Virus record (IMG/VR): IMGVR_UViG_3300045988_124250
Direction: 5' to 3' (one strand)
Origin: a virus
DNA: 64,000 nt
Shown here: in pieces, positions 1-64,000 of the stretch
Layout of the letters: each line of letters starts with the position of its first letter
How positions within the stretch are numbered: position 1 is the stretch's first letter
Made by a program: the position numbers and the translations under genes
The notes under the pieces: generated by a model
Database searches by the model: none
Told to the model about the DNA's origin: nothing
What the model saw: the letters and a program-made list of their open reading frames with translations, nothing else

Positions 1-3000
1 AATGGGATTTTATGAAAGAAAATCTCGAAACTGCTCGTAATGCTACTGGAACATTAACTGAACAATAGAAAATTTATGAAGAATCTTGGGAAGCCGCTAA
101 TAAGCGTTTACAAGCTTCATTCCAAGCTTTATACACCGATTTAATTGATGATAAATTTTTTATTAAATTTACAGATTTTTTATCTGATATGGTTGATGGC
201 GTTGATTCTTTTATTGATAAAATTGGTGGAATTAAACCTTTATTATTAGGATTTTTATCATTAATTGGTTAGACATTAAGCTCTAAAATTTAGCCGGCTT
301 TAGATAATGCAATAAATAATATTCAAATTTTAGTAGGTGGAGCAGATAAAGTTTATGCTAAAATATCTAAAGAAACTTCTGATAATATCAAATTATAGTT
401 AGAAGCAAGAACTAATTTTACTCCAGCTCAAGAGCAGGAATTAAAAAATTCTTAGGAATTATTAGGAGTAAAAAATAAATTAGCAACAGTGTCTGAAAAT
501 TTATCTGTTAGTGAAAAAAGATATTATGAAAATGAAATTCAATTTATTGAAAAACAATAGTAGGAAACAGTAAAATTAATTAAATTACGAGAACAATTAA
601 ATAAAGATACTAATCCTATTGATTTAAATGCTCCTAATCAAATCTATGATTATGGTACTAGTTATTTACAAAAATTAAAAGCTAATAAAGATAAAGCTTA
701 GTAGTCATATCGTAATAATCCATCTGAAAGTAATTAGGCAGATTTAGTCGCTGCTAGAAATGATTTAGCTTTTTTCTAGAATGATAAATTAGATATTCAG
801 GAATAGGCAGCGTCTCAATTAGCACAAACAGTTGAAAAATTAACAAATGCTTATAAAACTTTTATTGAAATTGGGCATGAAACAAATGAAACTTTATTAT
901 CAGGAAATGATTTATACTCTTTAACAATTGAAGGACTTAAAAAATTAGGGACTTAGTATACTAAATTAAATGGTGAAATTGATTTTGAAACGGTTCGAAC
1001 TTCTATTGATATGCTTATTGGTCCAGTAGATGAAGTCACAAAATCTTCAAAAGATTTTCAAAATGCTTTAGAAGCTATTGAAAGTGCATTAGATGGAGGA
1101 AAGCCAAAAGAAGTAAGTTAGGCTTTTAAACAATTAGCAGAAGTTCTAAAAAATACTACTGTTGAAGGAAAAAATGCGGCTAATGCTTTAGAACAAATGG
1201 GTCGTTCAACAAGTAAATCAATGAAATAGGCTAAAGGTGATATTTAGGCGCATGGTAAAGCATTAAAATAGTGGGGATAGGCTACTAAAGAAGCAAAAGA
1301 AGCACAAGAAGGACTCAATCAAGCAGTTATTAATTTTAAACCAATTCATAAAATACCTTTCACTTAGAGTATAATATCATTGGCCTCTGCTTGTGGTTCT
1401 GCCGCAATGGCATTACAATCATTTAATTCTATGATGCAAACATTATCTGATCCTGATATTTCTGGATGGGAAAAATTTACATCTGTTTTATTTAGTATTT
1501 CTATGATTGTTCCTGGGGTGTCTAGTGTTTTACGAGGATTAGGTACTGCTAATGCTTTTTTACAACAATAGTCCTAGAAACAATTTCTTACACTTTCTTT
1601 AGAAAATGTAGCAATAGGAGCTAATACAATAGTATTAACCCAGAATCAAAAAAAGAAAATAGATAATATATTAGCTAGTAAAAAATTAAATGATGCTTTT
1701 AAAAAGAATGCTATCCAAGCAGTTTTAGCAGCGGGAGGAGTAGTTACTGAAACTACAGCATTGCAAGCTGAAGCTATTGTAGCAGGAAAGGCGACGGTAA
1801 CAACTAATGCTTTTTCTACTGCTCTAAAAGGTCTATGGTTAAATATTGTTCCAGTTTTAGCTACTATTTGGCCTTTAATTGTAGCTTTAGGGGCTTTGGT
1901 AGCGGCTTGGGCGATATATGATAATGCTACTGGAGCCGCTGCGGAAAATGCTGAATAGAATAATAAAAATTTAGAAGAAACTAAAACAGCGTTAGATGAT
2001 GTAAATAGTAGATTAAATACATTAAATAGTACTTTATCTGGCTTAAATGATAAGCGTAAAAATATTGACAATCTTACTTATGGAACTATAGAATGGCGAG
2101 ATGCTGTTAATGAATTAAATGATGAAGTTGATGATTTAATTGAAAAATATGGTTTAATAAAGGGATAGGATTGGGATATTGATGCTCAGGGGCGTAAATA
2201 TATTACAGATACTGGCGCTGAGACTATGCGGACTTCAATGGATGAAGAACGTTCTAATTTATTATCAGCAAAAGCTGCTCAATAGAAATTTAAAGACAAA
2301 TATGAATATGATTAGAATAAAAAAGAAATTGTTTCTGATTATACTAAACGTGGATAGACTCATTATGACAATGATGTAGAATAGATTACATCTAAAGATT
2401 TGGATACTATTGTTAATGCTAAATTACGTAATCCAAGTTTAGAAATTAATCCTAATACATTAAAAGATTTAGGATTAGATCAAAGCGTTATTGATTTAAT
2501 TGATAATAATAGTGCTTTACAAGATGCTATTGAAGCATTAACTATATAGGCACAACGAATTGCTGATATAGAAACTAATGATATGTATAATAAAATGGTT
2601 TCTGAAGGCATTTTAGAAGATTTAAAAGAAGCCGGAGTTAGTGATGAATATGCTTCTGATATTGCTTATAAAATGGCTGAAGATGCAGTCCGTAATTCTA
2701 ATACTACAGATTATACCGACTAGTCTGCTACCGCTTTTAATGTTTTAAATAATTCAAATGAAAATATTCAAGAGTTTTTAAAAGAGAGAGGATATACTTA
2801 TAAAGATAATAATTTTTGGGGTAATTTATCTAAATTATAGAATGATAAAACTATTGAAGTATATATAGATGAAGATTAGAAAGAGACTAAAAATATTTCT
2901 GTTTCAGAGTTACGAGCTTGGCTGGAAAATAAATTAGCATCTGAAGATACTATAGCTAATGTTGATGATTATGTAGGGATTGAAGCTGATAGTAAAACAA

Positions 3001-6000
3001 CTTGGGAAAGCGCTTCTAAAGCGAAAGAAACTTGGGATAAAAATCAATCTACCGTTAATGAATTTTCAAAGTTAAGAGATTCTGGGGTCCCTCAAATTGA
3101 AGGATATGATGAAGAAACATTAAATAATTCTTATCAAGCTGCTTTAGAATCTAAAGCATCAGAAGTAGGAGAAGTTTTAAAGTAGAACTCTGAAGAATAT
3201 GCTAAGATGTTTGATATGACAAAAGAGGGCTTTGAAGATTGGATTAGCGATAGTGATAATATTATAGAAAATTTTGATTTAATATAGAAAGCTATTAATG
3301 GAGACGCTGAAGCAGTTAATGAATTACGAAAAAAAACTGGTTTAAATATTGGAACTATTGAAGATATTTAGGAAGCGTGGAATGATAATAGTAAAGCTTT
3401 AGATAAATATGCTGAGAAATTATCTAAAGGAGTAGAATTAACAGAATCAGAATATGATGCATTTGGAGATTTTTTAAATGCTAATTCAGATAGTTTTTCA
3501 TAGTTGGCAGGAGTAAGTGAAGAAACATTTGATAAAATTTTAGCGAAAGATAAAGATTTTATCAAAAAAGCAGGCCCATTAATTCCTAAAATGATGCAAG
3601 GAAATAAAGAAGCTTATGCTAAATTTAGAATTGAAGCTTAGAAAAAAATTATGATTGACGCTGATACTTCTCCTTATATAGCTAAATTAAGAGAGTGTGG
3701 AGAATACAATCAAGATCAAATTGATACAATGGTAGAACAATTATCTTCAGCTTTTGATACGTTAGCTAATCTTGCCGATTCTAAATAGATCGGTGTTAGG
3801 GTTGATGACAGTGAAGCTATTGCTGCCTGCCAACGCATAGTTGATGCTTTTGGATGGACAGCAGATGAAGCTGTTAAAGAAATGGGTAAAATGGGTTATA
3901 ATTTAGAGGTAGAACCTAGTGAACCTGTAGAGGAGACTACAACTGTATAGAATCCTATTTATGAGCATTATGGACCTGATGGATGTGTTTTACCTGTGCC
4001 TATTATTACTGGTTATGAAGATAAAGAAATAACTACTATGGTAGAGCCTCCTCCTACGGTACAAGCTATTACATATGATGGAGCTAAATTTGGAGGAAAA
4101 ACTGTAGGTGGTAATAAAAACAGTCCAACAAATAATAATACGAATGATAATAATCCTAGTGGAGGCGGTGGTAATTACACTCCTCCTCCTCCAAAAGAGT
4201 ATAAAGATGAAATTGAGCGCTATCATGTAATTAAACAAAAAATTGAAGATTTACAAGAGGTAATGGATCATTTAGCTAAAGCTAAAGAAAGAGCATTCGG
4301 TACTTCTAAATTAGAATTAATGGATCAAGAAATTGAGAAATATGATGAAATGATTGATTTATAGAATCAATATCTTGATGAAATTAATAAATACTGGGAA
4401 GAAGATAAGTCTTTAATCGCATCTTATGGGGCTGAGTTTGATGAAACTGGTGTTATTATTAATTATGATGAAATTATGAAGCGCCAGATTGACAAATATA
4501 ATTCATCTATTGGTAAAAATGAAGATGCTGATAAAGCGGCAGAAGAGGCTTATGATGATTTTATTGAAGCTTTAGAACAATATGAAGAAACTAATAATCT
4601 GCGCCAAGACGAATTAGAAAAATTATATGATTTACAAACTGAATTAGCTGATGTAATTTTTGAAAAAACTCAATACAAGATTGAAATTAAAATTGCCGTT
4701 AAAGATGATGAGTTGGAATATCTTGATTATTTACTTAGTAAAATTGAAGATGACGCCTATTCAGCGGCTGAAGCTATTGCATTAATTGGTGAAAAAGCAG
4801 AAAACGCTTTAGAAAAAACCAAAACTTATTCTGATGGTTTGCTGGAGTTATTAAATAATCATGGTATTAATTCTATTGAAGAATTGGATAAATTAACTGT
4901 TGATGATTTAAAAGCTAAGAATTTCACTGAAGATGAAATTGATCAAATTCGAGAATGGCGTTCTAGTATTTTAGAAGCTAATCAAGAATTGCTTGAAATG
5001 AGAGCAACTATTCAAGAAAAAGTTCTTGATAGTTTTAATCAATTTAGTGAGGATATTCAAGACCAAATTGATTTATTTGAACACTATCAAAATATTCTTG
5101 AAGGTGTTAAAGATATTACTTCCCTGTTAGGTGCTCAATTAAATGAACAATCAAAATTAGTATTGCGTAATTTAAATCGTTCATTAATGAATAATAGCAT
5201 TAATAATCTTGCAGGAGCTAAATAGCAAGTAGAGGCATTAAAACAAATGCGTGCTGACGCTCAAGAATAGTATGATAAAGCTGTTGCTAATGAAGATTCA
5301 ATTGGAATTAAACGATGGAGTGACACTTTAAAAGAAATTGATAAGCAAGTTCATGATGCTGAAGAAAATTTCTTAGATACTTGGCAAGAGACATTAGAGA
5401 GAGCTCATGATATCTTTGAAGAAGAAATGGATAATATCGTCAAAGAGTTTGAAGATGGCATATCTCCTATTTATGGTTCTATTGAGGCTTTGCAAGATGC
5501 TATTACTAGAGCTAATGAATTAAATGATTAGTATTTAAGTGATGCTGACAAGACTTATGAATTAAATAAACTAAGACGCCAAATTGAAGGCTCTATTGAT
5601 GATACTGACATTATTCCTCATAAACAAGCATTAAATAAATTACAAGATGAGTTAAATAAAAAATTAAAAGATGGCTCTAAAATTAGTGAATATGATTTAA
5701 AGATTTTACAATCTAAATATGAATTAGAGCTAGCTAGATAGAAATTGGAAGACGCCCAAAACTCTAATGAAACTGTTCGTTTAACTCGTGACAATAATGG
5801 GAATTGGGGATATGTATATAGTGCTAATGAAGATAAAATAGCTGAAGCTGAACAAGAATATGAAGATAAATTAAATGCTTATCAAAAAGCTAATGAAGAA
5901 TATTTGAAAACCTTAGAAAATAATATTATTCAATTACAATCTGATTATCAAGAAAAATTAACAGCAATAAAGTTGTCATTCACTCAAGGTGAAATTTCTC

Positions 6001-7028
6001 AAGCTGAATATGAAAAGTAGGCGGCTGATTTAGAAAAATATTATGATGAACGTATGCAGCAAATTCATTAGTAGTATGAAGAAGTATTTAAAAACAGTAA
6101 AGATGCTAATGAAAAATTTGTAGCATATTATAAAGATAGTTCTGGCGCATTAGTTGAAAATTTCAATTAGACTACTTTAGCATTAAAAACAGGATATTCT
6201 ACATTAGATGAAATGTTTAACGCATTCTGGAAAAGCCATGATAATTATGTAGCTGATTCTAATAAATTACTTGATGATTATTTAAATAAAATTAAAGAAA
6301 TTAATAGTACAGCAGGTATTGAAGGAAGTTTTGCTGATGAAGCTTCTGGATGGTCAATCAAAATTACTGGTGAATCAAATAAAGCCGTTGCAGATATGGA
6401 AAAAATTGTTAAAAATGCAACAGATTCATTTAATGATGTTATTAAAGCAGCCAGTGATTGGGAATCTATTTATGTTTCTAAAATTGATAGTGCGATTAAG
6501 CGTAATGAAGCTTTAGTAAAAACTATGAATGAAATGGTGGCTGCTTTGTCTGGAATGTAGAGTATTGATTATAGTAAATATGAAAATGCTATTGATTCTC
6601 GTTCAACAGCGACTGCCAATAATATAATTAGTACTCAACATAATTCTGAGAGTTTTAATAAATCAGCTGGAATTCCTGATTATATTTCTCAATTCTCTTA
6701 TTTAGATATGTTAGATCAATTAGATATAAATAAACAAATTGAAGGTTGGATGAATAATAATGAATTAAATATTGATACTGCTTTAATGGATAGTTTAGAT
6801 ATTTCTACTATATTACAAAATATAGGATTAAATGTTTAGACTATTGTAAGCTATTTATCTAATCTTATTCCTTCTTCTCTTGGTGTTGATAGAATTGCAC
6901 AAGAATTTATGCAACAAGTTTCTATTAATGCTGATTTCCCGAATGTGACTGATAGTAATGAAATTATGGAAGCATTTGAAATGATGGAAAATGAAGCAAG
7001 TCAATATGCTAGTCGAAAGACTATTTAA
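1..7028 (+). CDS. Tape measure protein (5' partial, more than 2340 codons) containing about 45 in-frame TAG codons, which are read as sense
   Basis: Frame-3 ORF pieces 1380, 1761, 3996, 4476, 5745 and 6213 share one frame and are joined only by TAG. No TAA or TGA occurs until the TAA at 7026-7028. The protein is coiled-coil rich and has two hydrophobic Ala/Gly-rich membrane-like segments (about 1380-1560 and 1700-1930) typical of tape measure proteins. A hairpin terminator follows. Confidence 0.75.
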
Positions 7029-7140: not shown

Positions 7141-10032
7141 ATGTCTAATGAATTAAATGAAAAAATATTCCGATCAGTAGACACAATTGTATCTGCTCGA
7201 TTATAGAATTTACCATTTGACTAGACAATAGTTGGAGTAGTAGAAAGTGTTCCTGAAAGTATTGAAGGAGCATAGAAATATATTGTAAATTATAAAGGAG
7301 CTAAATTAACAGTTTTTGTTAATGAAAAAGATAAATCTTATGCTCTTAATGAAGAAGTTTATGTATTAATTCCACAAGGCGATTTTTCTGGTAAGAAATT
7401 GATTACTGGACGTGTAATTAGTGATTATGAAGTAATTGGTAAAGATGATTCTAAAACTTTTTATGCAGCTAATTAGCTTTTTAATTAGAGTAAAGAGATT
7501 GTGTTAATTCCTAGTTCTGAAGGTCGAGAGTCTAGTAAAACTATTATGGGTCCTCAGAGTTATATAAGTAATAATGAATTAGTAGGATATACGACTTTAC
7601 GTATTTCTTATAATTTAATGGCTGATTTATATAATGGCGCAAAAACTTTAAATAAAGGTACTTATGGTATCCGTATTATATTAAGTGGAAAAGATTAGAC
7701 AACAAAAGAATTAAAAACATTTACTCGACAGACCACAACAATATCCTCTAATAAAGATATGTTATTTTTAAGTGCATATAAAACAGGAGGTTATACTTCT
7801 CAATATTTTGATATAGATGTTACTAATTTAATTATTAATGATATCCAAATTGAATTATGGGAAAATGGCAATTTTTACGATAGTGATAATAATAAAATTG
7901 ATAGTTCAGATTCTTTTTCAATTGTTTTTAAAAATATAAATTTATATTTAGGATATTATAAAAGTAATTTTTCAGATATTACAACTGATAGTAATATTGG
8001 CGTTTATTTATATCCAAGAGGTAGCAATAGATATTAGTTCACTCCCTCTCAAGATGAAGAAAAACGTAAGGTTACAATGGGGTTTAGAGTTATAGATATG
8101 ACTTCAGGGACTTTGGCTACATTTACTGGGGCAGAAATATGGTTATATTCTTATGATAAAGATGTAACTGAAAATAGTTCAGTATTTGGTCAAGGTTGGT
8201 GGCGTTTAGGTGCAAGAGCAGATGGCAGCTATGATGAGATTCCTATTCTTGCGGGTAATACAATTTCTATCTCTCTCCGTTTAGGAGATTAGATTTTTAC
8301 TCAATCATATAGGATTTATTTTAAAGGTAAAATAGGAACAAGAGAAGTTTTAGGATATTCTTAGTCATGTTCTTATACAAATACATTATATAATCCAGAT
8401 ATTGGTTTATTAGCTGGTTTAAATTTATTTACGAATAATAATAATAATACATTTTATATATATGGACAAGATAACCAATTATTAGCTCGTTCTGATGGAG
8501 AAAAAATCCATTATATTGCGGTAGAATTTAATAGCAAAGATACTAGTAAGACTACAACATTGACAAATGGTGTTCGATTACGATATATGCTACCTTCTAA
8601 AAAAACAATGATTATTCCAGTGGAAAATGGAAAGATAAATAAGCATGATGAGTATGAGTTTGAGCATATATTAAATACTGATAAAAATACTGCTCCTATG
8701 TATGATTATTTAAATCCTACAACTAAAATATATTATATACCTTTTAGAATTAACTCTTTATACAATCCACTTTTTAGAAATAATACAATTAAATGTGAAA
8801 TTGAAATTAATAATTAGATATATACCAGTTCAATTGAATTATTATTTGGTAATAGCGGCTCTTCTGGGGCTAATTGTGTACTTCAATTATCACTACAAGA
8901 AAAAATTAAAGATTAGTATAAGGATTGTAAAGTTATTTGTCCTATTTCTCAAGATAAGGAGTATCGAATAGTTGCTAATTTATATGATTATACTTGGCAA
9001 GGACGTTCTGATATTGAATTAACTTATGAATGGTATTATAATTCTTTAAATTCTGATAAGATTTCATTAGTGGATAATATTATTAAAATTCATGAAGCAT
9101 TAACAGAATCTGATATTAATCTTTTATCAAAATTAGTGGTTAAAGTAAAAGGAACTTATAATAATAATAATTTAGAGGGATATATTAGTATTCCTACTAC
9201 ATTTAATCCAGAATATGTTTGTGCTGATGGATGCTCTATAATAACTTATGATATTACTGGTAAAAAACCGGTATATGAAAAAACTAATTATCAAATTTTT
9301 AAATATACAACTGAAATGGATGGGTTTGAAACTGTATCTGAAAATTTAAATTGGAGCTTGCAGAATAATATTAAAAATGATGAGAACAAAATTTTAGCAT
9401 AGTGGAAATTTGAAAATAATATAATTATTCCGCCTACTGTATTTTCCTCTCAAGATAATAATTCAACTTGTCTCTATGTATAGGCATAGAATAAAACAGA
9501 CAAAATAGTATGGATATAGCCTATTGTAGTGATTAAAAATAATTATCCTATTGCAATGTGGAATGATTTACAAGGGGCAGCTATTAATTTTAATGACGAA
9601 ACTTTACAATTAATTTCTACTACAGTAGGACAATTAAATAGTAATTAGACTAAAGGTGTACTAATGGGTACATTTAAAAATAATAATAATTTAGAAGAAT
9701 ATGGTTTATACGCTTTTGATAATAAAAAAAATATATTTAAAATAAACGATTAGGGAGAAGCTTGGATAAAAACTGCTACTTCAGCATAGAATTTAGCAAG
9801 TGCTGATTATAAAAGTTTATTAAATATTGGAAGCTCTGGGAACCCAGTATATTTCTTAAATGGAGTACCCGTCCAATGTAATTTATCTTCAAATTCTACT
9901 ATTAAGACTTTAATTGATAGGTGCGATAAATTAGAACAACGTATCCAAATTTTGGAAAGTAATTTCAATACATTATAGCAAACAACAATTCCAAATTTAG
10001 TAAAACGCATTCAAGCATTGGAAAATAAATAA
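7141..10032 (+). CDS. Virion tail/baseplate protein (about 963 codons, roughly 25 in-frame TAGs) in the distal-tail-protein position after the tape measure
   Basis: RBS AAAAAGGAGAG then ATG at 7141. ORF pieces 7501, 7759, 8077, 8560 and 9070 are all in the same frame and linked only by TAG. The gene ends at TAA 10030-10032. The C-terminus is a coiled coil. Confidence 0.6.
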
Positions 10033-50335: not shown

Positions 50336-50830
50336 TCACATTTTTTCCCATAAGTCAAATGGAGCGTAATAAACTTTTTGATTGTGTGAGCCACGCATAG
50401 GTAAGGTAATATCTCGTTGTTCAATCTTAAATGGACCGTCAATAATACAATCAATATTATCAACAATATTTTTTAGATGTGGCTCTCTGCACATAGCCAA
50501 TTCATCCATTGTATATCCAGTCCATAAAAAAATTTTTGTTTTAGGAAGAGCTTCTTTAATATGTTCAATAATTAAATCTACAAGGAATAGATTTTCTGGC
50601 GCAAGGGGCTCTCCTCCCATAATACAAAAATCACGATGTATACCATTAGCAGTAAGAGCATTTACTATATCATCTAATGTATTAGTAGTAAATTCTTTTC
50701 CGCCATTAAAATCCCAAGTTTCTGGATTCTAACAACCCTCGCAATGTCTGGCGCATCCTTGAGTGAAAAATGAGACACACACTCCAGGAGCTCCAGCAAT
50801 ATCATTTTTAATTATACCAGCGTATCTCAT
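50336..50830 (-). CDS. nrdG: Anaerobic ribonucleotide reductase activating protein (164 codons, 1 in-frame TAG directly after the radical-SAM Cys motif)
   Basis: Motif GCARHCEGC-TAG-NPETW, with the TAG codon at 50729-50731. ORF 50336-50620 is the C-terminal part. The start overlaps the nrdD stop as ATGA. Confidence 0.75.
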
Positions 50831-53169: not shown

Positions 53170-53766
53170 TTAATAAGTTGTGTCCAGATGCTCCGGCCAC
53201 CGAGACAGGAACAATGCTAAATCTTTATATATATATTCTAATTCCGCAGGAGTATTATTTACATATAACCAATTACATAAATCATCAGCATCTTCAAAAT
53301 CGAGTTTATCTGTTTTATATCGACGAATAATTTCATCAATATCCGGGTTAGCCTCTCGATTTAACTATCTAATTAATCGAATCTTATCATCTGCGTGGAT
53401 ATAAACGATAATTAAATTTACTCGTTTATCATGTAATAGAATCTCTGCGCCTTCTGGATTAAATACTCCTACATTGATAGCGCCCTCTTTGACTGATTCA
53501 ATTCCTGTGCCATAGCACCATTCATTAAAAACAGTAGCTTCAAACATTTGATTCTATAAAATCATTTCAGCAAATTTTTCTGCTGAAATAAAATGGTAGT
53601 TAATACCATCCACTTCTTTTTCTCTTGGAGGTCTTGAAGTATAACTTATAATTTCATGTAGAGGTAATTTACCATTATAATAATGCTTTGTATCATCAAT
53701 TAGTTTACGGAGAATGGTATCCTTACCACTCCCCGCTTCACCAATTAATGCTAATATATTATACAT
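53170..53766 (-). CDS. Guanylate-kinase-like nucleoside monophosphate kinase (about 198 codons, 2 TAGs)
   Basis: P-loop GEAGSGKDT and a GMP-kinase-like FISAEKFAEMI...YGT block. Junction stops at 53554 and 53365 are both TAG. Ends at TAA 53170-53172. Confidence 0.65.
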
Positions 53767-56700
53767 TAATTAGCTCCTCCATTATATCTCTCATCTTTTA
53801 ATTCAATATCGCCATTATCTAAAATTTTATCAATTTTATATAATTGATGACCGCCAGAGCTGGCATATTTCTTCGCTATAAAATTATCACCTTGACGAAT
53901 ACCTTGAACAGCAATCATATTACCACGATTAAACCAGCTTTTTTCCATTACTTTTTTAGTACCATCAGCTTGTTTTTCTGAAATTTGTTTATCAAATAAT
54001 GAGAAATATTCTTTTCTAAATTTAACTTCAACAACTCCAGAAGTAGTGAGTAATGTAACTGTTGACTTAGTTTTATTTTTAGCAATACAAGTCCCACAAA
54101 TCTTGTGTAATTTATACATAGTAATCGTTTTATTACCCTTAGAAAAAACTTTATCAACAATTGGTTCTTCTGGTAGATGGAAGAAATCGACAAATCCATA
54201 TTTACTATTATTTACATGGGCTAACTCATGCTCATGATAATAGAAACACAAGACTTCCATCTCCCACGCAGAAATAGATTTAGATGCATATTTATCCCAA
54301 TCATCTTTAAATATTTTATTATTTAATTTATTTAAAATAACATCTTTATTTTCTGTAATCCAAGCCCGGAATGTATCCATATATTTTTGATATACTTTAT
54401 CCCAAGCTTTAGAGTCTAAGAGACAACAACTACCAATTAAATCATCACAACCAATTTCAGTTAGGAAATTAATTGCTCGTTCATCAACTTTATACACATT
54501 ACCATCTTTACAAACGGCTTTTAAATATCTATTAAATTCATAAACTCGTCTTGCCATCACATATTCATCTTTATCTTCTGGCAATAAATTATAACGAATT
54601 AGAGTTGCTAAATTTTGTAATGTTAAACGAGATTTTTTATCGCAAGTTTCCCAAATATACCAAATCATTAAATCTTTGCGGTCCATCATTTCATCAAATG
54701 CGCCACTTTTAATTAATGAAATCATTGCTTGTTTACTAGGTTTAATACGATAATAAAAATCTTTTACTGATATATATGGACGATTTGCAATAATATTATT
54801 AATCAAATCATCCCCAACATTCAATAATCCTTTTAAACCAAATAGAATTTGATTATTTTCAACATCAGGCGCAAACCCAAATTTAGCTTTATTAATATCA
54901 GCTAAACTGACTTTAATACCAGCAGACTGAATATCTCCAATCGCTTTTGCAATTTTACCATAATCAGTACTAGCCACTTTTTTATTTTTTGGTTTATTCT
55001 CCATTACATCTTCTGGAGAAACACCACAATATTCTTCGCCAGAATAATCATAATCTTCATCGCTCATTTCTTCTGGCTCATTTTCTAATGCTCCACTATT
55101 TACAATCAAACAAGCACAATTCCAATAAATAGGATTGAAATTAATTGCCAAATAAATCATTTGAATTGCAACAAATGAGTAAGGAAGAGAATGATTTAAA
55201 CTAAATGCATATCCCAATTGAGGAGCGATTGCATTTTCCCAAAAATATTCAGCATTATGTTCATTAGTAAACTTGCTAAATACTTGTTCTTTTAGTTGAG
55301 GAATTTTTGCCATTTGTTTTTTGGCAACGACTTTACGTGCGCTATTTGCTTCGCCTAATGTAAATCCAGCGACATCCATAAGAATTTCCATCATTTGCTC
55401 TTGAAGCGGACAGCATCCATAATATCTATCACAATGCTTGTGCATTTTTTCAATCATTTCTTCTGGTAAATGATTATCTTTCATCTCTTTATCAAAAACT
55501 TCAATGCCTGCTTTTTGAATTCGATAATATCTATCTTGCTGACTTTCTTTGCCCTTTTCACTCATTAGACGCATCATAGCATTTGCCGCTGTCATTTCCA
55601 TAGGGTCTTTTGGCTTCAATTTTTTAGCAATAGCTAAACCTACACCAGTAGAAAACTGGAATACATCAAGAATGTCTCCGGCTGCCAGATGTTCCCAAAT
55701 GCGCTTGTCAGAAGTATCTATTACTTCTGGATGAAGATATTTATTATAAAAATCACGTAGACCAATATCAGGAATTTGATTATCCTCTTTTAATAAATTA
55801 TAACATTGAATAATCTTATCGCAAGCTTCTGTTACCAAGAAGTCATATTTAGTATCTCCAGCGGCTTCAGCTTTATGCAAATCCCAACAAGTAATTAAAT
55901 CACCACTGGGGGTTTTCATAAATGATGCAGTTTCAAATGGGTCTTCTCCATATAGAATAACGCCAGAAGCATGAGAAGAACGTTTATTAACGATACCCTC
56001 AATGTATACAATAATATCCAATAGACCAGGATACTGATTTACTTTTTGAATAAATGTGGTAACTGGTTTTCTGTCTTTATCAGGATTACCATTTACTACA
56101 TCTTTCATCGGCCATAGAAATCCACGTTCTTGCGGGATTAATGAAGACATAAATTGCGCTTCATCTACATCAATGCCATTTGGATAATCATCACTTCTAT
56201 AACCACGACAAGCAGTTAAAATCGCTTGCTTTGTTCCTTCAGTTCCAAACGTTGCAACTTGAATTAAACCTAATGTTCCGCGCTCTTTACGAATAGCACT
56301 AAAAATTGCAGGGCGTTTACTTGGTGCTAGGTCAATATCAATATCAGGTAATTCAGCGCGCTCTAAGTTCAAGAAACGCCAATATGGTAATCCCCAACGA
56401 ATTGGATCTAGCTGAGTAATTCCCAGTAAATAATTAGATAAGAAACCAGTTGCTGAGCCTCGACCGGGGCCAACAATACTTCCGCACTCCCAGAACAAAT
56501 CAATATAATGTTTAAATGTATTAAAATAAGCAAACAAACAATCTTCAAGTTTTTCGCCAATATTTTTAATTACATTAGCTTCAGTTTCAAGCCGAGCAAT
56601 ATATGTTTCATTTTCATATAATTGTTTTTCTTGTAATGCTTTAATACATTCATTTATCCAATATCGTTCTTGAATATCATCACTATTAATCAGTGAACAA

Positions 56701-57737
56701 ATAACAGGATATTTTTCATACCAATCTTTTGGAATAAATCCCTTTTTATAGTCTAATACTTCTACTCTTGGAATTTGTTGTTTGCGCTCAAGAGAATAGA
56801 ATTTTATTTTCTTTTGAATTTCTAATGTATTATCAAAAATCCAATTCATAATTTCTTGAGGAGTTTTATTTTTATCCCAAGTATCCATATATGGTAGCAT
56901 TAATTCTTCTACTTCATCGCTATTCATTACATAAGCAAATTCATAGAATGAATCAACTTCACGCTCGCCATCTTTAGAATTTAAATAGGCTTTATGAATT
57001 GGTCTATCTTTCTTTGTTAAATAATGAGCGTCAGTTCCAACTACCATTTTTAAATCATATGCTTTTGCTACTTGATAAATTTTTTGATTTACTACAAGTT
57101 GGTCTTTCATGGTAGACGGAGCGCACTCTAAATAAAAATCATCTTTACCAAAAACATTTATACAAAATTCAATAAATTTAACAATATTATTATAATAAAT
57201 GCTTTTAGTTTGTGTATCGCCTACAACTTCGGCTTCATACATTGGATACAAATTAGAACCTAATTCACCACCAATACAAGCTGTTGTTGCGATTACATGC
57301 CCTTTATATTGTACCATTACATTTTTCAATTCAGATTTTAATGTTGGCACTCGTTCCATTTTTCTATCAATATAAGAATTAATCCAAGCAATTGAACTTA
57401 ATTCTTTTAATGCTTTATATCCAATTTCATCTTTTGCCAATAAAATAAAATGATAATACTTTTGACCGCAATCTCTTGTATCAGTCAAATAAATTTCATT
57501 GCCTAATGCGATAGTAAAATCAGGATGCTCTTTTAAAAAATCTTTTGCAAATTGATTAACTTCCATATGAGCAGATAAACATTCGTGATCAGTAATTGCT
57601 ATACCACTTAATCCTAATTTTTCTGCTGTTTTAATCAACTCTTCTGGTCTATTAATAGAATCTAATAAACGCAGATTTGAATAGTGAGTATGGTTGTGTA
57701 CGCCAAAATATGGTCGCATAATCCACCTCTTTCTCAT
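53766..57737 (-). CDS. dnaE: DNA polymerase III alpha subunit, DnaE-type with N-terminal PHP domain (1323 aa, no TAG)
   Basis: Uninterrupted 1323-aa ORF. PHP motif GVHNHTHYS...ITDHE, a polymerase core and a C-terminal OB fold. RBS AGAGGTGGA. Confidence 0.85.
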   Translation of the reverse strand: MRKRWIMRPYFGVHNHTHYSNLRLLDSINRPEELIKTAEKLGLSGIAITDHECLSAHMEVNQFAKDFLKEHPDFTIALGNEIYLTDTRDCGQKYYHFILLAKDEIGYKALKELSSIAWINSYIDRKMERVPTLKSELKNVMVQYKGHVIATTACIGGELGSNLYPMYEAEVVGDTQTKSIYYNNIVKFIEFCINVFGKDDFYLECAPSTMKDQLVVNQKIYQVAKAYDLKMVVGTDAHYLTKKDRPIHKAYLNSKDGEREVDSFYEFAYVMNSDEVEELMLPYMDTWDKNKTPQEIMNWIFDNTLEIQKKIKFYSLERKQQIPRVEVLDYKKGFIPKDWYEKYPVICSLINSDDIQERYWINECIKALQEKQLYENETYIARLETEANVIKNIGEKLEDCLFAYFNTFKHYIDLFWECGSIVGPGRGSATGFLSNYLLGITQLDPIRWGLPYWRFLNLERAELPDIDIDLAPSKRPAIFSAIRKERGTLGLIQVATFGTEGTKQAILTACRGYRSDDYPNGIDVDEAQFMSSLIPQERGFLWPMKDVVNGNPDKDRKPVTTFIQKVNQYPGLLDIIVYIEGIVNKRSSHASGVILYGEDPFETASFMKTPSGDLITCWDLHKAEAAGDTKYDFLVTEACDKIIQCYNLLKEDNQIPDIGLRDFYNKYLHPEVIDTSDKRIWEHLAAGDILDVFQFSTGVGLAIAKKLKPKDPMEMTAANAMMRLMSEKGKESQQDRYYRIQKAGIEVFDKEMKDNHLPEEMIEKMHKHCDRYYGCCPLQEQMMEILMDVAGFTLGEANSARKVVAKKQMAKIPQLKEQVFSKFTNEHNAEYFWENAIAPQLGYAFSLNHSLPYSFVAIQMIYLAINFNPIYWNCACLIVNSGALENEPEEMSDEDYDYSGEEYCGVSPEDVMENKPKNKKVASTDYGKIAKAIGDIQSAGIKVSLADINKAKFGFAPDVENNQILFGLKGLLNVGDDLINNIIANRPYISVKDFYYRIKPSKQAMISLIKSGAFDEMMDRKDLMIWYIWETCDKKSRLTLQNLATLIRYNLLPEDKDEYVMARRVYEFNRYLKAVCKDGNVYKVDERAINFLTEIGCDDLIGSCCLLDSKAWDKVYQKYMDTFRAWITENKDVILNKLNNKIFKDDWDKYASKSISAWEMEVLCFYYHEHELAHVNNSKYGFVDFFHLPEEPIVDKVFSKGNKTITMYKLHKICGTCIAKNKTKSTVTLLTTSGVVEVKFRKEYFSLFDKQISEKQADGTKKVMEKSWFNRGNMIAVQGIRQGDNFIAKKYASSGGHQLYKIDKILDNGDIELKDERYNGGAN

Positions 57738-57781: not shown

Positions 57782-58387
57782 TCAATCATCTACGGTAAAT
57801 GTTGTATTATAAATCCGATTTAACATATCAATCCAACAATTATATAAAGGTCTATACCGAGGCGGCACCCACGGCGGAGAGAGACAAATAATTATAATAT
57901 CATAATCTTCCATTGTTAAATCAAAATTTTCAATGCTATCTTGTCTGGTTAAATAATTATTTTTATCCAGATGACACTAAATAGAATTATCATTATGAAT
58001 CCAATTATATTGACTAACCGCATAACCATGTTCATAAGCATATTTTACCCAATTACCACAATTCAATTCATCTTCTGGTTCAACTTCATTATATTGAATA
58101 TCATGATGATGGTCTATATTAGTTATTTCAATAAGATCATTTAATGGGAGATATTTAATTACTCGATGATGTGAAGTTATAAAATGCACATTTTCTTTTT
58201 TAATATGTTTTGTTTGTCGAAGAATCATTTGAGTCAAACGATTATATAATTCCCCATCAAATTGTGTATAATTTAGTAAATCAAAATTAGCTATTAGAGT
58301 TTTCCAATCCTATTGTACTAAATTATTATATAACGGTAATGATTCCCACATTAATATATCAAAATCAATAGTTAATACTTTTGTCAT
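57782..58387 (-). CDS. Hypothetical protein (about 201 codons, 2 TAGs)
   Basis: ATGA overlap with the upstream helicase stop. ORF 57977-58237 is internal to it. Ends at TGA 57782-57784. Confidence 0.45.
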
Positions 58388-59580
58388 TTTCTAATTAATA
58401 CCAACCTCTCTTTAGCTCTTGTGGCTAAGGTATAGAGATATTTTTTATGAGTTTCTCTATCATAAGGCGGAGCCTCTTCAAACCCTAATACTTTATTATA
58501 TTCACTACCTTGAGCTTTCCAGCAAGTAATGGCATAGGCATATGAAAAATCAAATGGAGGGTCAGGGCAATTTTTATTCTTTTTAATTTGATAAATTTGT
58601 TTTCCTTCAAATGTTTTTTTACCAGTTAACAGTTGGTTATAATCAATAGGAACTCCACAAAATGTATCATCATCGTCAAGTCTTAATTGAGCATACATAA
58701 ATGGTACAGGGTTTTTATAAATCCAATAGGGAAACCGTATATCTTCAACGTAGAAATCTTCTAATGTCCCAATGGTCCCATTAGTTAATGCCCATGTATG
58801 ACTAGAAGACATAAACTCCCATTGATTATGTAGTCCGATTAATTTATCTCCAAGGCAAGGTCTATCAGGATCATATCCTTTTTGAGTTCGAACTATACGA
58901 TTAATATCATTTCGTTTTTCATTTGTTGAGCAAATAATTTGGTCTGCCCAATTATACATCTAAGGCAGCATTTCATCCCATTTAAACCGAATTAAAACTT
59001 GTTCTTCAGTACCTTTATAGGAAGAAATTGGTTTGTTATCACGAATCCACATTGAGAATCTAATAATTTCACTATCTTGCGCTTGACGCATAATTTCATC
59101 AAGGAAAACGTGGGGATTGTCGAGAACATGATTATTATCTTCATCGACTATTGGTGGTAATTGGCCGGGGTCGCCGGTTGCCAAAATATAAATACCATGA
59201 GATAGAAGTAATTCCCACATGGCTTTAGGAAGCATTGAAACTTCATCTACTACAATTACTTTGTATTGTACTATTTCCTCTCTTGGTCTTGGAAAAAATT
59301 TATATGTTCCATTAGGTGTAATCCGCGCTTTATATAATAACTAATGAGCAGTAGTCGCATTCGGACAACCTTTAGTCTAGAGAACTGTAGCCGCTTTACC
59401 AGTAAATGCTACATAACAAACTTCTTCTTCTGGATTTACTCCCAAGGCAGAAATAATAAATTTAATTAAAGTTGATTTACCACTTCCAGCATAACCTGCT
59501 ATTACTGTATATCGTTCTTTATTTTTATATCGTTCTACTGCTATTTTTAATCCTTGTTCTTGTTTATTTGTTAAAATCAT
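58384..59580 (-). CDS. Dda/RecD-like SF1 DNA helicase (about 398 codons, 3 TAGs)
   Basis: Walker A AGYAGSGKST, Walker B VIVVDEVSML, ILATGDPGQLPPI and ITCWKAQGSEY. ORF pieces 59377, 58960 and 58384 share one frame and are joined by TAG at 59377, 59341 and 58960. Confidence 0.75.
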
Positions 59581-59812: not shown

Positions 59813-59876
59813 ATTATCTCCATAAATGAAAATAAGGGTTATATGGAGAAATACCTCTCCATATAACCATATATAA

Positions 59877-60707: not shown

Positions 60708-60760
60708 AATTGTAATTCCTCCTAATAGGTTTTTGGTCTATTAGTCGTAAGTGTCAATTA

Positions 60761-62506
60761 TTAAAAATAATAATTTGCCCTATCTACAATTTCGTAATCT
60801 TTAATCATAACTTGAGGACTAATTTTATTATTCCAAATATTTCGTTCGCATTCACCAACGATATTAATTGTCACATAACCTAATTCAGAATATAGTTTAT
60901 CATATTCCTCTTCAGACGACCTAAACTTCATAAAATTGATGCCGTTAGGCAACATTATCTTTAGAGTAGGATTTTTATCTGGCGATAGAATACGTATATT
61001 GTCTTTATGGACTTTAATACCTTCTACTGCAATTTCAGCTTCTTCTACTCCTTGGCCCCATAAGCTTTTCATTCCTGCGATATCAATAACTTCATCAGGA
61101 GTCAGCTCATCTGATTTGTAGATAAAATCTACATTATAGATTGGGGTGAAATCAAAACCGTCTAGAGCAGAATTTGTAGATGCAATAAATGCGCTAATAT
61201 CTTCATCTTTAATACCAACACCAAATGCATTTGCATGGCCTTCGGCGTACATAACATATTTATTATTTTCTAAAAATCCTCTAAAATCTTTCAATCGAGA
61301 TTTGTCGTATCCTCTACCAGACCCTTCCCAAGTTATTGTACCATCTTCATTTTCAATTCTATTTAAGATTAAAACAGGTCTTTGATATTCACTCATTAAT
61401 TGATTTGCTATTAATCCAGTTAGGTTGCGGTCAGTAATCAAATCATCTAATTGAACGATTAAGATTTTATTACTCAATAAGTTTTGATTTACGATTATCT
61501 ATTCAATTTTTTCCAAGCTATTGTCTCGAATTTTGGTTTGCCTACTTTTAATATTGGTACAATTTCGACAAGCTTGTTCTACTCTCGTCTCTGCTTGACC
61601 TTTACATCCACGTTTCGTTGATGGGACAAGTTCGTATCCCCGAAAATCAAGCATTGATTCGAATAGCATGAGCTTTTCTTCTTGCGTTCCGACGCGAGTT
61701 GTCGCGTTAATTAATGGAGCAATATAAAAAGCTACTCCAATAGGTGTAATCTCATTTGTAAAATGAAATTGGTCTTTATCAATCGCACCTCTGAAGTAAG
61801 GATTGCGGATTTGTTGAAGTCCTTTATCTATTAATCTTCTTGTTTCAAAATCTCGCACATCCATCATGTCGGCCACCAATCCAAGAGCTACTAAATCTAA
61901 AAACTTCTACGCATGGTTAGTTTTTAATAACATATCAATGTAGCAACAAAATTTCCAGACCATCGCTACACCAGATAATGATTTAGTAGGATAATCACAT
62001 AACTAATTATTAATTACACAAGCATATTTAGAAATGTGATCAGCTTCATGGTGGTCTATTACCAGCACGTCAACTCCACTTAGATTTAAATATTCATGAG
62101 CTTCATAATCATTTGAACTTGAATCTGGAGCGATTACTAATTTAACATCTTCTGGAATTGTATCTGGAATGATACCGTGCTGTTTTCCCATATGGACACG
62201 ATAAGAAATGTTATTATTCACAAAACTGGGAAATAGACAATATAGATAATTCATAAGTAATGCGGCAGAAGTATATCCATCACAATCACTATCTACCTAT
62301 ATCAGAACTTTGTCATTTTGTGAAATATGTTTAATAAGCATTTTAGCACCTTCATCCAAGTGCGGTATTAACCGAGGGTCTAAAATGTCATTATCAGTAG
62401 TGTTTAAATAATGATTAATCTAATCGTAGGGTATTCCACGATTTACTAGCACTTGTTCTACCGGTGTATATATCGGGAACTCGGGTGCTCTTAGGCGGTA
62501 TTCCAT
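60761..62506 (-). CDS. RecJ-like DHH/DHHA1 single-strand DNA exonuclease (about 581 codons, 4 TAGs)
   Basis: DHH motif I VDSDCDGYTSAALL, motif III VLVIDHHEA, and DHHA1 AEGHANAFG. ORF pieces 62003, 61499 and 60761 share one frame and are linked by TAG. RBS AAAGGAGGG plus ATG at 62506. Confidence 0.7.
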
Positions 62507-62577
62507 AGAATAGTCACCCTCCTTTCATTAAACCACTACCCATATATTTTAATTTTTTTATTAAATTTATTATTTAT

Positions 62578-62890: not shown

Positions 62891-63045
62891 ATTGTGTTCC
62901 TTTCTTTATTATTTTTCCACAATTGGGACACTTATCATATTCTTCTTTAAAACTTTTATAACATAATGGACATTGATATCTTATATCTGGGAATGGGTCT
63001 AAATCTGCGGCTGCATTATATTTATTCCAATGTAATTCGCTCATT
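62868..63045 (-). CDS. Small zinc-ribbon protein (58 aa; CPLC...CPNC)
   Basis: MSELHWNKYNAAADLDPFPDIRYQCPLCYKSFKEEYDKCPNCGK. The start overlaps the primase stop. Confidence 0.45.
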
Positions 63046-64000
63046 ATATTATAATCCTTTCTTTAAATAATTTCAAGAAAATATCTTTTCCATCATCAAT
63101 TGGTGAATCTTTATATCCAAGTAATCCGGTTTTATCAAACATAAATGATATTGTGGCATAATTTTTAAATTTACTTCTTGCTTTTAATAAATTTAATTTA
63201 AGATGTTTAAATTCATCATCACCAAGCTCTTTAAATTGTCTATCAAATGCAATAATAATTTCTTCAACTCCACAATCTAATAATAACTGAACTTGATGGC
63301 TGGATAAATTACTGCCACAACACGCAACAGATATATCATTATTAAGACCAAAATAAGTTTTATATTTTAAAACAGATTTTTCTCCTTCAAATACTATTGC
63401 TTTTTTAAATGTTTTTATAGCATTTTTACTTAAATTTAAATTATATAAATTCATACCAAGAGGATGGCTATACCATTGATTATTTAAATGAATGGGTCGA
63501 TATTTCCCATATAATTCACATTCTTCTTTACATAATGACCGCCCACGTAAACCAATAAATCGCCCATCAATATCATAATGTGGAATTGTTATTTGGTCGC
63601 CTCCTGGATAAAAACCAATTTTAGCAGCATTTAATGCTTCTTGTGAGATACCTTCATCTAACCAAGGTGTTAATTGAACTTTATAATTAAATCTTGTTAA
63701 AATTTTTTCATCATAAGTTTTTAGTGTTATTTGATTAGTTTTCTTCTCAATACTTTGAATACGACTATATTCATTAAAAATTTTCCAATCTTCAAGAGTT
63801 TTGGCTTCATCTAATTCTTGAATTGTTCCGCCTAAACCAAAACGATGAGCTACCCATAAAACTGCTGAGTTTAAATCAAATTCTCGCTCATGTTGAATAC
63901 GCATTACTTTCGTGCATAATTCAAATATATCAAACGTAGCATCGCATCCGGTATAACATTTAAACAATCCAGTATTTTCATAATAGTAGAGTTTTTTACT
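63044..64000 (-). CDS. dnaG: DnaG-like DNA primase (5' partial at the window edge, TAG-free)
   Basis: TOPRIM motifs VFEGEKSVL and DCGVEEIIIAFDRQ. Part of the zinc-binding N-terminus lies beyond position 64000. Confidence 0.65.
   Translation of the reverse strand, partial: SKKLYYYENTGLFKCYTGCDATFDIFELCTKVMRIQHEREFDLNSAVLWVAHRFGLGGTIQELDEAKTLEDWKIFNEYSRIQSIEKKTNQITLKTYDEKILTRFNYKVQLTPWLDEGISQEALNAAKIGFYPGGDQITIPHYDIDGRFIGLRGRSLCKEECELYGKYRPIHLNNQWYSHPLGMNLYNLNLSKNAIKTFKKAIVFEGEKSVLKYKTYFGLNNDISVACCGSNLSSHQVQLLLDCGVEEIIIAFDRQFKELGDDEFKHLKLNLLKARSKFKNYATISFMFDKTGLLGYKDSPIDDGKDIFLKLFKERIII

What the first reader, a model, noticed from the sequence alone, without database searches (positions are those of the whole stretch)
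1..64000. Amber (TAG) codon is a sense codon across this phage region
In nearly every gene the six-frame ORFs are broken only by TAG. Adjacent ORF pieces always share the same frame, and translating through TAG never meets TAA or TGA until a gene end that is marked by an RBS-preceded neighbouring start, an ATGA overlap or a terminator. Examples: tape measure 1-7028 (about 45 TAGs), 10053-17327 (7.3 kb), 26995-35145 (8.1 kb), 39174-44183, nrdD (5 TAGs), the helicase (3) and RecJ (4). In about 30% GC DNA a random 7-8 kb frame free of TAA and TGA is essentially impossible. All genes terminate at TAA or TGA, none at TAG. Contexts such as LQQ-TAG-S-TAG-KQF and MKQAKGDI-TAG-AHGKALK-TAG-WG in coiled coils favour Gln (code-15-like). 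Conserved-site alignments (NrdG GC-TAG-N, NrdD LG-TAG-LG, RecJ motif I) would also admit Tyr or another aromatic residue, so the identity needs a tRNA.
Basis: seen in the sequence. Interest (0 to 1): 0.95.

Follow-up and report, generated by a model that had tools for sequence, protein, structure and literature searches.

The report
Phage that reads TAG as glutamine
This 64-kb stretch of a roughly 200-kb gut phage reads the amber stop codon TAG as glutamine, and close relatives carry a matching suppressor tRNA; this is a real but already described kind of phage genetic-code change.

Summary
Treating TAG as sense raises the sequence lying in open frames of at least 600 nt from 24 kb to 56 kb, and coding density reaches 95%. 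The 33 genes hold 206 in-frame TAG and no internal TAA or TGA. A 2,716-codon frame free of TAA/TGA has a chance probability of about 1e-126.

The amino acid is glutamine:
- In relatives 89-95% identical in DNA, TAG exchanges with CAA or CAG in 30 of 34 changes, and never with TAT or TAC.
- Three NrdD TAG sites are Gln in 55-63 of 67 mostly standard-code homologues.
- An empirical likelihood test ranks Gln first.

The window has no tRNA. In a 92-96% identical relative, a tRNA array about 40-50 kb past the position matching the window's right end holds a conserved tRNA(CUA). Eight related contigs carry this tRNA.

TAG makes up 33% of Gln codons in the virion genes but 11% in the replication genes. 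DnaE has none.

No release factor was found in the roughly 150 kb sampled.

Public gene calls for this genome already read TAG as Gln. TAG-recoded gut phages of about 200 kb have been described (Borges et al.).

The parts
1..64000 (.). Region in which TAG is a sense (Gln) codon: 33 genes, 206 in-frame TAG, no internal TAA/TGA, 95.4% coding.
3..7028 (+). 3' part of a giant ORF (2341 codons here, 49 TAG; TAG is 35% of Gln codons). Tape-measure-like by size and position only.
   Evidence: No PHROG hit for the first 450 aa.
7141..10032 (+). Virion-module gene: 963 codons, 19 TAG (43% of Gln codons).
10053..17327 (+). Giant virion-module gene: 2424 codons, 41 TAG. It is 95% identical to a gene on the IMG/VR contig from which locus L004 was taken, with TAG positions conserved.
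17324..20134 (+). Tail protein (weak PHROG 'tail' hit): 936 codons, 17 TAG (50% of Gln codons).
20493..24128 (+). Virion-module gene: 1211 codons, 19 TAG. The last TAG lies 2 codons before the TAA stop.
26995..35145 (+). Giant gene: 2716 codons, 14 TAG. The public gene call on the identical ENA contig is also 2716 aa.
35470..37404 (+). TAG-free gene (0 of 18 Gln codons) inside the virion module. The exact protein is on the 201,374-bp ENA contig.
39174..44183 (+). Phage tail repeat (PF12789) protein: 1669 codons, 14 TAG.
50336..50830 (-). NrdG activase, 1 TAG (CEGC-TAG-NPETW).
50827..53097 (-). NrdD anaerobic ribonucleotide reductase, 5 TAG. Sites 219, 434 and 545 are near-invariant Gln in homologues.
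53170..53766 (-). Guanylate-kinase-like nucleotide kinase, 2 TAG. Site 135 is Gln in 17 relatives.
53766..57737 (-). DnaE-type DNA polymerase III alpha subunit: 0 TAG among 44 Gln codons.
58384..59580 (-). SF1 (UvrD/PIF1-like) helicase, 3 TAG.
60761..62506 (-). RecJ-like DHH exonuclease, 5 TAG. Site 174 is Gln in 44 relatives.
63044..64000 (-). Primase (Toprim) fragment, 0 TAG. Used as the anchor for the genome walk.

Best explanation
The window is part of a roughly 200-kb tailed gut phage in which UAG has been reassigned from stop to glutamine (translation table 15).

**Proposed mechanism.** The phage family carries its own tRNA with anticodon CUA. It sits in a large tRNA array in a nearly TAG-free part of the genome. 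In a 92-96% identical relative the array lies about 40-50 kb beyond the position matching the window's right end. Once this tRNA is made and charged with Gln, probably by host enzymes, ribosomes read through UAG. Termination is left to UAA and UGA.

**Codon usage.** UAG has largely taken the place of CAG as the second Gln codon (206 TAG against 55 CAG). This fits C-to-T drift in AT-rich DNA. UAG is concentrated in tail and other virion genes and is rare or absent in DnaE, primase and the genes around the tRNA array. Full-length virion proteins can therefore only be made after the suppressor is active.

**What is shown.** TAG is sense. It aligns with and exchanges with Gln codons. A conserved tRNA(CUA) is present in close relatives. 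TAG is unevenly distributed between gene classes.

**What is inferred.** The window's own genome carries the same tRNA. The tRNA is charged with Gln by host enzymes. RF1 is outcompeted or neutralised. The uneven usage acts as a timing device.
For: **TAG is sense.**
- ORF statistics.
- Pfam domains run uninterrupted across TAG codons.
- 212 of 236 TAG sites are conserved in close relatives.

**The amino acid is Gln.**
- TAG exchanges with CAA 18 times and CAG 12 times. The other four changes are AAT, GAG, ATG and TGG. There are no TAT or TAC. CAA needs two base changes, so this frequency indicates synonymy.
- NrdD sites 219, 434 and 545 are Q in 63, 55 and 59 of the genome-collection homologues.
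- Standard-code phage TR-TP1 has Q, E, M and Q at four NrdD sites.
- RecJ site 174 is Q in 44 relatives and kinase site 135 is Q in 17.
- In the empirical substitution likelihood, Q beats K by 22 lnL units and E by 25. Y and W are not among the top eight.

**The suppressor tRNA.**
- tRNA(CUA) at L145:7804-7877. ARAGORN finds it and it scores 55 bits against Rfam tRNA, whose threshold is 29.
- It is identical or nearly identical in 8 related contigs.
- It has a U1-U72 mismatch, G73 and an encoded CCA. By established E. coli work (supE, su7, GlnRS identity; recalled from memory), these features together with U35 favour glutaminylation.

**Usage bias.**
- TAG is 33% of Gln codons in 3-44183 and 11% in 44230-64000, Fisher p = 4e-11.
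- In relative 160359, the region next to the tRNA array is nearly TAG-free.

**Other support.**
- More distant family members use the standard code.
- Many of the closest bacterial NrdD homologues come from Erysipelotrichaceae MAGs, and most of the 67 loci show no in-frame TAG. This points to a standard-code host.
- Literature: the same phenomenon, the same Gln assignment and the same late-gene bias are described in 10.1101/2021.08.26.457843. There is proteomic proof of TAG = Gln for crAss-like phages in PMC9523058 (abstract).
Against: - The tRNA(CUA) was found in relatives 92-96% identical in DNA, not in the genome the window comes from. That genome's tRNA region could not be retrieved.
- No peptide evidence exists.
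- The suppressor is not a close copy of the phage's own tRNA-Gln(UUG). At 65-69% identity to several isoacceptors it has no clear parent, so its charging with Gln rests on codon and alignment data, not on tRNA identity.
- No release factor (GGQ motif) turned up in 2.9 Mb of fetched family DNA, and no synthetase was noticed among the proteins that were scanned. About 48 kb of the genome was not sampled.
- How RF1 is beaten is therefore unknown. An ORF with 49 TAG needs at least about 95% read-through per codon to yield even 10% full-length product.
- One conserved site (NrdG) aligns with Phe in its only standard-code comparator.
- TAG also occurs in replication genes, and the relative L001 has 3 TAG in DnaE. 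The early/late split is a tendency, not a rule. The major-capsid-like and sheath-like genes are TAG-free.
Confidence: 0.9

Rival explanations
1. TAG is a sense codon but encodes tyrosine or another aromatic residue (or Lys/Glu) rather than glutamine.
For: - Distant solved NrdD structures have F/Y at the LG-x-LG site.
- TR-TP1 NrdG has F at the GC-x-N site.
- K and E are common at less conserved TAG sites.
Against: - There are no TAG-TAT or TAG-TAC exchanges among 34 codon changes, and 30 of them go to CAA/CAG.
- Closer NrdD homologues have Gln at LG-x-LG in 59 of 63 cases.
- The likelihood test puts Q 22-25 lnL units above K and E. Y and W are not among the top eight.
- K and E are the ordinary substitution partners of Q.
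Confidence: 0.03
2. TAG encodes pyrrolysine. ARAGORN labels the CUA tRNA 'tRNA-Pyl'.
For: Only the ARAGORN label. ARAGORN gives that label to any CUA anticodon.
Against: - TAG alternates with Gln codons and sits at invariant Gln positions.
- At 206 TAG per 20,318 codons, usage is far above anything known for Pyl.
- No pylS or pylBCD genes were noticed in the sampled DNA, but no dedicated search was run.
Confidence: 0.005
3. The host bacterium itself reads TAG as Gln, and the phage simply shares the host's code. There is no phage-driven switch.
For: - TAG occurs in replication genes as well as virion genes.
- No RF2 or anti-RF1 gene was found.
- The host is not identified.
Against: - The phage family carries its own tRNA(CUA).
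- Key genes (DnaE, primase, genes around the tRNA array) are TAG-free, and the usage bias is strong.
- More distant family members use the standard code.
- Most of the bacterial NrdD homologues fetched, many of them from Erysipelotrichaceae MAGs, have no in-frame TAG.
- To my knowledge no bacterium with UAG = Gln is known.
Confidence: 0.04
4. The TAG codons are real stops: the region consists of pseudogenes, assembly errors or fragmented genes.
For: None beyond the fragmented appearance under table 11.
Against: - No TAA or TGA occurs in frames of up to 2,716 codons, with P about 1e-126.
- TAG positions are conserved across independent assemblies.
- Enzyme domains are intact across TAG codons.
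- The window is 100% identical to an independent ENA contig over 25470-47404.
Confidence: 0.005

Closest known systems
TAG-to-Gln recoded (code 15) gut phages: Lak, crAss-like and the Jade/Sapphire/Agate/Garnet/Amethyst/Topaz clades (Borges et al., bioRxiv 10.1101/2021.08.26.457843; proteomic validation in PMC9523058)
   Same: - In-frame TAG aligns with Gln.
- A phage-encoded tRNA(CUA) is present.
- TAG is concentrated in structural genes and used variably in replication genes.
- More distant family members use the standard code.
- A standard-code Firmicutes host is predicted.
- The ENA record name (OBRE15, SAMN03283272) suggests that the window's source sample belongs to the same human-gut data set as their Sapphire and Topaz examples (SRR17470xx). 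This is my inference and was not checked.
   Different: - Clade membership (terminase phylogeny) was not tested.
- In this window 23 of 33 genes carry TAG, far above the 26% genome-wide mean quoted for Sapphire. The window is mostly virion genes, and the region near the tRNA array is nearly TAG-free.
- No RF2 was found, whereas some Lak and Agate phages have one.
E. coli amber suppressors supE (tRNA-Gln CUA) and su7 (tRNA-Trp CCA to CUA, charged with Gln); from memory of the classical literature
   Same: - CUA anticodon with U35.
- G73 discriminator.
- A weak or absent 1:72 pair, the features GlnRS uses.
- The anticodon loop CUCUAAA equals the usual tRNA-Trp loop CUCCAAA with C35 changed to U.
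   Different: - It is phage-encoded and used genome-wide, not as a leaky suppressor.
- It has no clear parent isoacceptor: 65-69% identity to Thr, Met, Lys, Cys, Trp and Gly tRNAs.
- If the host is a Firmicute without GlnRS, charging would have to go through GluRS plus GatCAB. That was not examined.
phAss-1 group of TAG-recoded gut phages (PMC10607447)
   Same: A human-gut phage with in-frame TAG in many ORFs. It also encodes NrdD.
   Different: Its genome is 136 kb, and its NrdD is only 40.7% identical. It is a different lineage.
Thomasclavelia phages TR-TP1 and TR-TP2 (PQ571309, PQ571310)
   Same: They have the closest annotated phage NrdD (69.5% identity). They are low-GC phages of Erysipelotrichales hosts.
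   Different: Their genomes are 90-101 kb and use the standard code. Their NrdD is split by an HNH-containing insert. They served here as a standard-code comparator.

Membership tests
TAG-to-Gln recoded (code 15) phages | Many in-frame TAG in otherwise intact genes, with TAA/TGA absent from those frames | tested here: met
   206 TAG and 0 TAA/TGA in 20,318 codons. P about 1e-126 for the longest frame.
TAG-to-Gln recoded (code 15) phages | TAG positions align with Gln in homologues that use the standard code | tested here: met
   NrdD sites are Q in 55-63 of 67 homologues. TR-TP1 comparison. Likelihood test. Codon exchange with CAA/CAG in 30 of 34 changes.
TAG-to-Gln recoded (code 15) phages | Phage-encoded suppressor tRNA with anticodon CUA | tested here: met
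   Absent from the window. Present in 8 related contigs; those that could be compared with the window are 92-96% identical in DNA. Rfam tRNA score 55 bits. Not retrieved from the window's own genome.
TAG-to-Gln recoded (code 15) phages | Recoded codon enriched in structural/late genes and depleted in some early genes | tested here: met
   33% against 11% of Gln codons, p = 4e-11. DnaE and primase have 0 TAG. The region next to the tRNA array is nearly TAG-free. Exceptions: the capsid-like and sheath-like genes are TAG-free.
TAG-to-Gln recoded (code 15) phages | Phage-encoded RF2 or another factor that removes RF1 competition (present only in some members) | tested here: inconclusive
   No GGQxVN motif in 2.9 Mb of fetched family DNA, but about 48 kb of the genome was not sampled.
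TAG-to-Gln recoded (code 15) phages | Peptides with Gln at TAG positions | not testable with these tools
   Needs (meta)proteomics. This has been done for crAss-like phages in PMC9523058.
Sapphire or Jade clade of Borges et al. | Placement in the clade by large-terminase phylogeny (at least 95% bootstrap) | not tested
Pyrrolysine decoding | pylT/pylS/pylBCD genes and sparse UAG use at specific sites | tested here: not met
   UAG is dense (1% of codons) and interchanges with Gln codons. No dedicated search for pyl genes was run.

The most novel reading that the evidence does not exclude
The code change might run on an unusual tRNA pair.
- The suppressor is not a mutated tRNA-Gln. It is a scaffold of unclear parentage with a U1-U72 mismatch, G73 and a tRNA-Trp-like anticodon loop.
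- About 900 nt upstream, the phage's ordinary tRNA-Gln(UUG) gene is interrupted in its anticodon loop. The insert is conserved and structured, 72-122 nt long, and matches no Rfam intron family. It is absent in at least one relative.

If processing of that insert controls the supply of the CAA/CAG decoder relative to the UAG decoder, or if the phage achieves near-complete UAG read-through with no release-factor gene at all, the switch mechanism would differ from what has been described.
Probability: 0.1. Interest if true: 0.6.

Novelty: new member of a known kind. Interest (0 to 1): 0.3.

Why it matters
**Practical.** Under table 11 this genome falls into fragments (24 kb instead of 56 kb in long ORFs) and its 7-8 kb virion genes disappear. 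Any annotation, host prediction or protein clustering must use TAG = Gln.

**Biological.** It adds a well-documented example to a known pattern, in which large Firmicutes-associated gut phages reassign UAG to Gln using their own tRNA and load the codon onto virion genes. The example comes with codon-exchange statistics, standard-code relatives and a conserved suppressor tRNA.

**What it does not do.** It opens no new question. The open points are the ones already recognised for this class of phage: how RF1 is overcome and who charges the tRNA.

Tried and rejected
- **Megablast of 44000-64000 against 50,697 phage records.** No relative found.
- **PHROGs on ten virion-module proteins.** Almost no annotation, and 'tape measure' was not confirmed.
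- **Tally of relatives' protein sequences at TAG sites.** Set aside as circular, because the public gene calls already translate TAG as Q. Replaced by codon-level and standard-code comparisons.
- **Genome walk for the tRNA.** Seven of the eight viral-collection scans found none within about 40 kb on either side of the window. The array edge appeared and the suppressor, through the metagenome scan.
- **Release-factor motif scan.** Nothing found.
- **Exact-pattern search for the suppressor's D-arm and anticodon stem in 185,579 genomes.** No hits, so no parent tRNA or host clue.
- **Similarity of the suppressor to 172 phage tRNAs.** No clear parent isoacceptor.
- **Retrieving the tRNA region from the window's own 201-kb contig.** Attempts through two protein searches and cluster look-ups failed.
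- **An 871-codon 'ORF' near the tRNA array.** Rejected as the antisense strand of a real MVP-like gene.
- **The noTAA column.** Not used, because removing the commonest stop in AT-rich DNA inflates ORFs spuriously.
Full report
**1. The observation**

The window is 30.3% GC. Under the standard bacterial code the longest + strand ORFs are 2.1, 1.9 and 1.4 kb, and 24.0 kb of sequence lies in ORFs of at least 600 nt. If TAG alone is removed from the stop set, the longest ORFs become 8178, 7281, 7026 and 5079 nt and the total becomes 56.1 kb. Removing TGA changes almost nothing, and removing TAA has only the small effect expected in AT-rich DNA.

I built 33 gene models from the TAA/TGA-delimited frames. 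They cover 95.4% of the window. They hold 206 in-frame TAG and no internal TAA or TGA in 20,318 codons. In the other two frames of the same genes, TAA+TGA make up 10.1% of codons. The chance of a clean frame is therefore about 1e-126 (2716 codons), 1e-112, 1e-108 and 1e-77 for the four giant genes. In 20 shuffles of the window the longest TAA/TGA-free frame was 531 nt.

Most of the refined starts are preceded by an AGGAG-type ribosome-binding site. Pfam domains of NrdD, NrdG, an SF1 helicase, RecJ, a guanylate-kinase-like enzyme and others align straight through the TAG positions.

The label 'tape measure' could not be confirmed (no PHROG hit).

**2. Not an artefact, and already read this way in public data**

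The window is 100% identical over 25470-47404 to a 201,374-bp ENA contig, ERZ28619677 OBRE15-1_SAMN03283272_METAG-scaffold_15. It is 89-95% identical to other contigs of about 197-199 kb.

In relatives at least 90% identical in protein, 212 of 236 aligned TAG sites keep TAG and the other 24 have Gln.

The public gene calls on these contigs have the same lengths as my TAG-as-sense models (2716, 644, 202, 288 and 1669 aa). They do not translate under table 11. An automated pipeline has therefore already applied TAG = Gln to this genome.

**3. Which amino acid**

A first tally of relatives' protein sequences gave Q at the NrdD sites. I set it aside as circular for the reason just given. Four independent lines replace it.

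(a) Codon exchange. Against two relatives aligned at the DNA level, TAG is replaced by, or replaces, CAA 18 times and CAG 12 times. AAT, GAG, ATG and TGG each appear once. TAT and TAC never appear. CAA is two mutations from TAG, so its frequency indicates synonymy rather than mutational proximity.

(b) Standard-code homologues of NrdD.
- The Thomasclavelia phage TR-TP1 enzyme (69.5% identical, annotated under the standard code) has Q, E, M and Q at four of the five sites.
- 67 loci from the bacterial and archaeal genome collection, most without in-frame stops, were compared. Site 219 is Q in 63, site 434 in 55 and site 545 in 59.
- Site 545 is the LG-TAG-LG position. In this subfamily the residue is Gln.

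(c) Other enzymes. RecJ site 174 is Q in 44 relatives, RecJ site 76 in 18, and the kinase site 135 in 17.

(d) Likelihood. Substitution profiles were taken from the same alignments. The residues seen opposite TAG fit the profile of Gln best, by 22 lnL units over Lys and 25 over Glu. Tyr and Trp are not among the top eight.

The only dissenting site is NrdG GC-TAG-N, whose single standard-code comparator has Phe.

**4. The decoder**

The window has no tRNA. I walked outward along related IMG/VR contigs. Nothing was found within about 40 kb on either side. The edge of a tRNA array then appeared.

A metagenome scan with a small ORF inside the array returned the whole array from ULOZ01046417.1 (197,566 bp) and others. 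ARAGORN finds 17 tRNAs there, including one with anticodon CUA at L145:7804-7877. This tRNA scores 55 bits against the Rfam tRNA model, whose threshold is 29. The same tRNA, identical or differing by one base, is present in eight related contigs.

Features of the tRNA:
- a U1-U72 mismatch at the top of the acceptor stem;
- discriminator G73;
- an encoded CCA;
- anticodon loop CUCUAAA.

From the classical E. coli work on supE, su7 and GlnRS identity (recalled from memory, not tested here), U35, G73 and a weak 1:72 pair are what GlnRS reads. The loop equals a tRNA-Trp loop with C35 changed to U, as in su7, which inserts Gln.

The tRNA has no clear parent among 172 phage tRNAs (65-69% identity to several isoacceptors). 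No match to its D-arm and anticodon stem was found in 185,579 genomes.

**5. What else the switch might need**

No class I release factor motif (GGQxVN) occurs in 2.9 Mb of fetched family DNA, which covers roughly 150 kb of the genome. About 48 kb remains unsampled.

An ORF with 49 TAG needs at least about 95% read-through per codon to give 10% full-length product. RF1 must therefore be strongly outcompeted or disabled. How this happens is unknown.

TAG is followed by A in 44% of cases, against 31% for CAA. This is a mild context bias and I did not pursue it.

**6. Distribution of TAG**

TAG is 33% of Gln codons in the virion module (3-44183) and 11% in the rest, with Fisher p = 4e-11. It reaches 35-50% in the first six genes. 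It is 0 in DnaE (44 Gln codons), the primase fragment, the tail lysozyme and gene 35470-37404.

In the related contig 160359, the 20 kb next to the tRNA array is nearly TAG-free, the replication block has low TAG usage, and the head and tail block has high usage. Inside that head and tail block, however, the major-capsid-like and sheath-like genes have none.

This fits the published idea that recoding delays or gates late proteins. The split is a tendency only. NrdD, RecJ and the helicase need suppression too, and a relative has 3 TAG in DnaE.

TAG (206) far outnumbers CAG (55). This fits CAG-to-TAG drift under AT pressure once TAG became readable.

**7. Family and host**

- Primase-linked loci show that close relatives (72-100% identical in protein) are TAG-recoded, while more distant ones (47-66%) look standard-code.
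- Many of the nearest bacterial NrdD homologues come from Erysipelotrichaceae or Erysipelotrichia MAGs.
- The nearest annotated phage NrdD belongs to Thomasclavelia phages.
- Together these suggest, weakly, a standard-code Erysipelotrichales host.

**8. Comparison with what is known**

Borges et al. (10.1101/2021.08.26.457843) describe TAG-to-Gln and TGA-to-Trp recoding in eight gut phage clades. These include large Firmicutes-associated clades of about 150-210 kb. [quoted passage not shown] They also report preferential recoding of structural and lysis genes and variable recoding of replication genes. Peters et al. (PMC9523058, abstract) showed TAG = Gln by metaproteomics in crAss-like phages.

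Everything found here matches that description. Membership in a named clade needs a terminase tree, which I could not build.

**9. Verdict**

This is a new, well-supported member of a known kind. It is of practical importance for annotation and of modest scientific novelty.

Noticed in passing
L145:6695-6888 (relative ULOZ01046417.1); also L146, L148, L150, L151; shorter in L147; absent in L245:816-891: The phage's ordinary tRNA-Gln(UUG) gene is split in the anticodon loop (CAGGA CUUU | insert | GAC UCCUG). The insert is conserved and structured, 122 nt long (72 nt in one relative), and is closed by a CGAGAA/UUCUCG stem. ARAGORN misses the gene, Rfam tRNA scores it at 43 bits, and no Rfam intron family matches. 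The insert is too short for a typical group I intron. The gene lies about 900 nt upstream of the amber suppressor.
   Followed up: partly
L135:2722-4251 and L135:4422-6911 (relative IMGVR_UViG_3300045988_160359): A DUF2828/DUF7788 protein and a major-vault-protein-like protein (MVP_shoulder, Vault_3) sit next to the tRNA array. Both are TAG-free. Both have antisense frames of 500-870 codons free of TAA/TGA, which suggests a codon usage unlike the rest of the phage. In other relatives, three radical-SAM genes, methylases or GIY-YIG genes are inserted between them, so this is a hypervariable spot.
   Followed up: partly
L131:3493-7383: An RNA ligase-like protein, an AAA_33 (polynucleotide-kinase-like) protein and metallophosphatases lie close together. 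This looks like a tRNA-repair set, near the tRNA array.
   Followed up: partly
L079:577-1719 and 5801-6907 (upstream of the window's start in a relative): The major-capsid-like and sheath-like genes contain no TAG, although they sit among genes where TAG is 30-60% of Gln codons. The most abundant virion proteins seem to avoid the recoded codon.
   Followed up: partly
window 20493-24128: The last TAG lies two codons before the TAA stop (...SIF-TAG-E-TAA). It cannot be told whether this TAG ever acts as a stop.
   Followed up: no
window 1-4157 compared with L077/L079 and L080: The family is mosaic. The first 3.6 kb of the giant first ORF is about 92% identical in DNA to contigs 147738 and 160359. 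Its first 185 aa are only 62% identical in protein to contig 140174, which is otherwise 95% identical in DNA from 4161 onward.
   Followed up: no
L170/L171 (CAMELE010000001.1, 'uncultured Mollicutes bacterium' MAG, 164-kb contig): This contig carries an NrdD 74% identical to the window's, with 5-7 in-frame TAG. It is very probably a contig of a related recoded phage binned as a bacterial genome. Several other MAGs (L180, L181, L209, L216, L218, L219, L222, L229) also show in-frame TAG in NrdD.
   Followed up: partly
L003:19995-23118 (Thomasclavelia phage TR-TP1): The NrdD of this standard-code phage is annotated as two CDS separated by an HNH endonuclease gene. This looks like an intron or intein-like interruption.
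   Followed up: no
window, all genes: TAG is followed by A in 44% of cases, against 31% for CAA. TAG (206) is almost four times as frequent as CAG (55).
   Followed up: no
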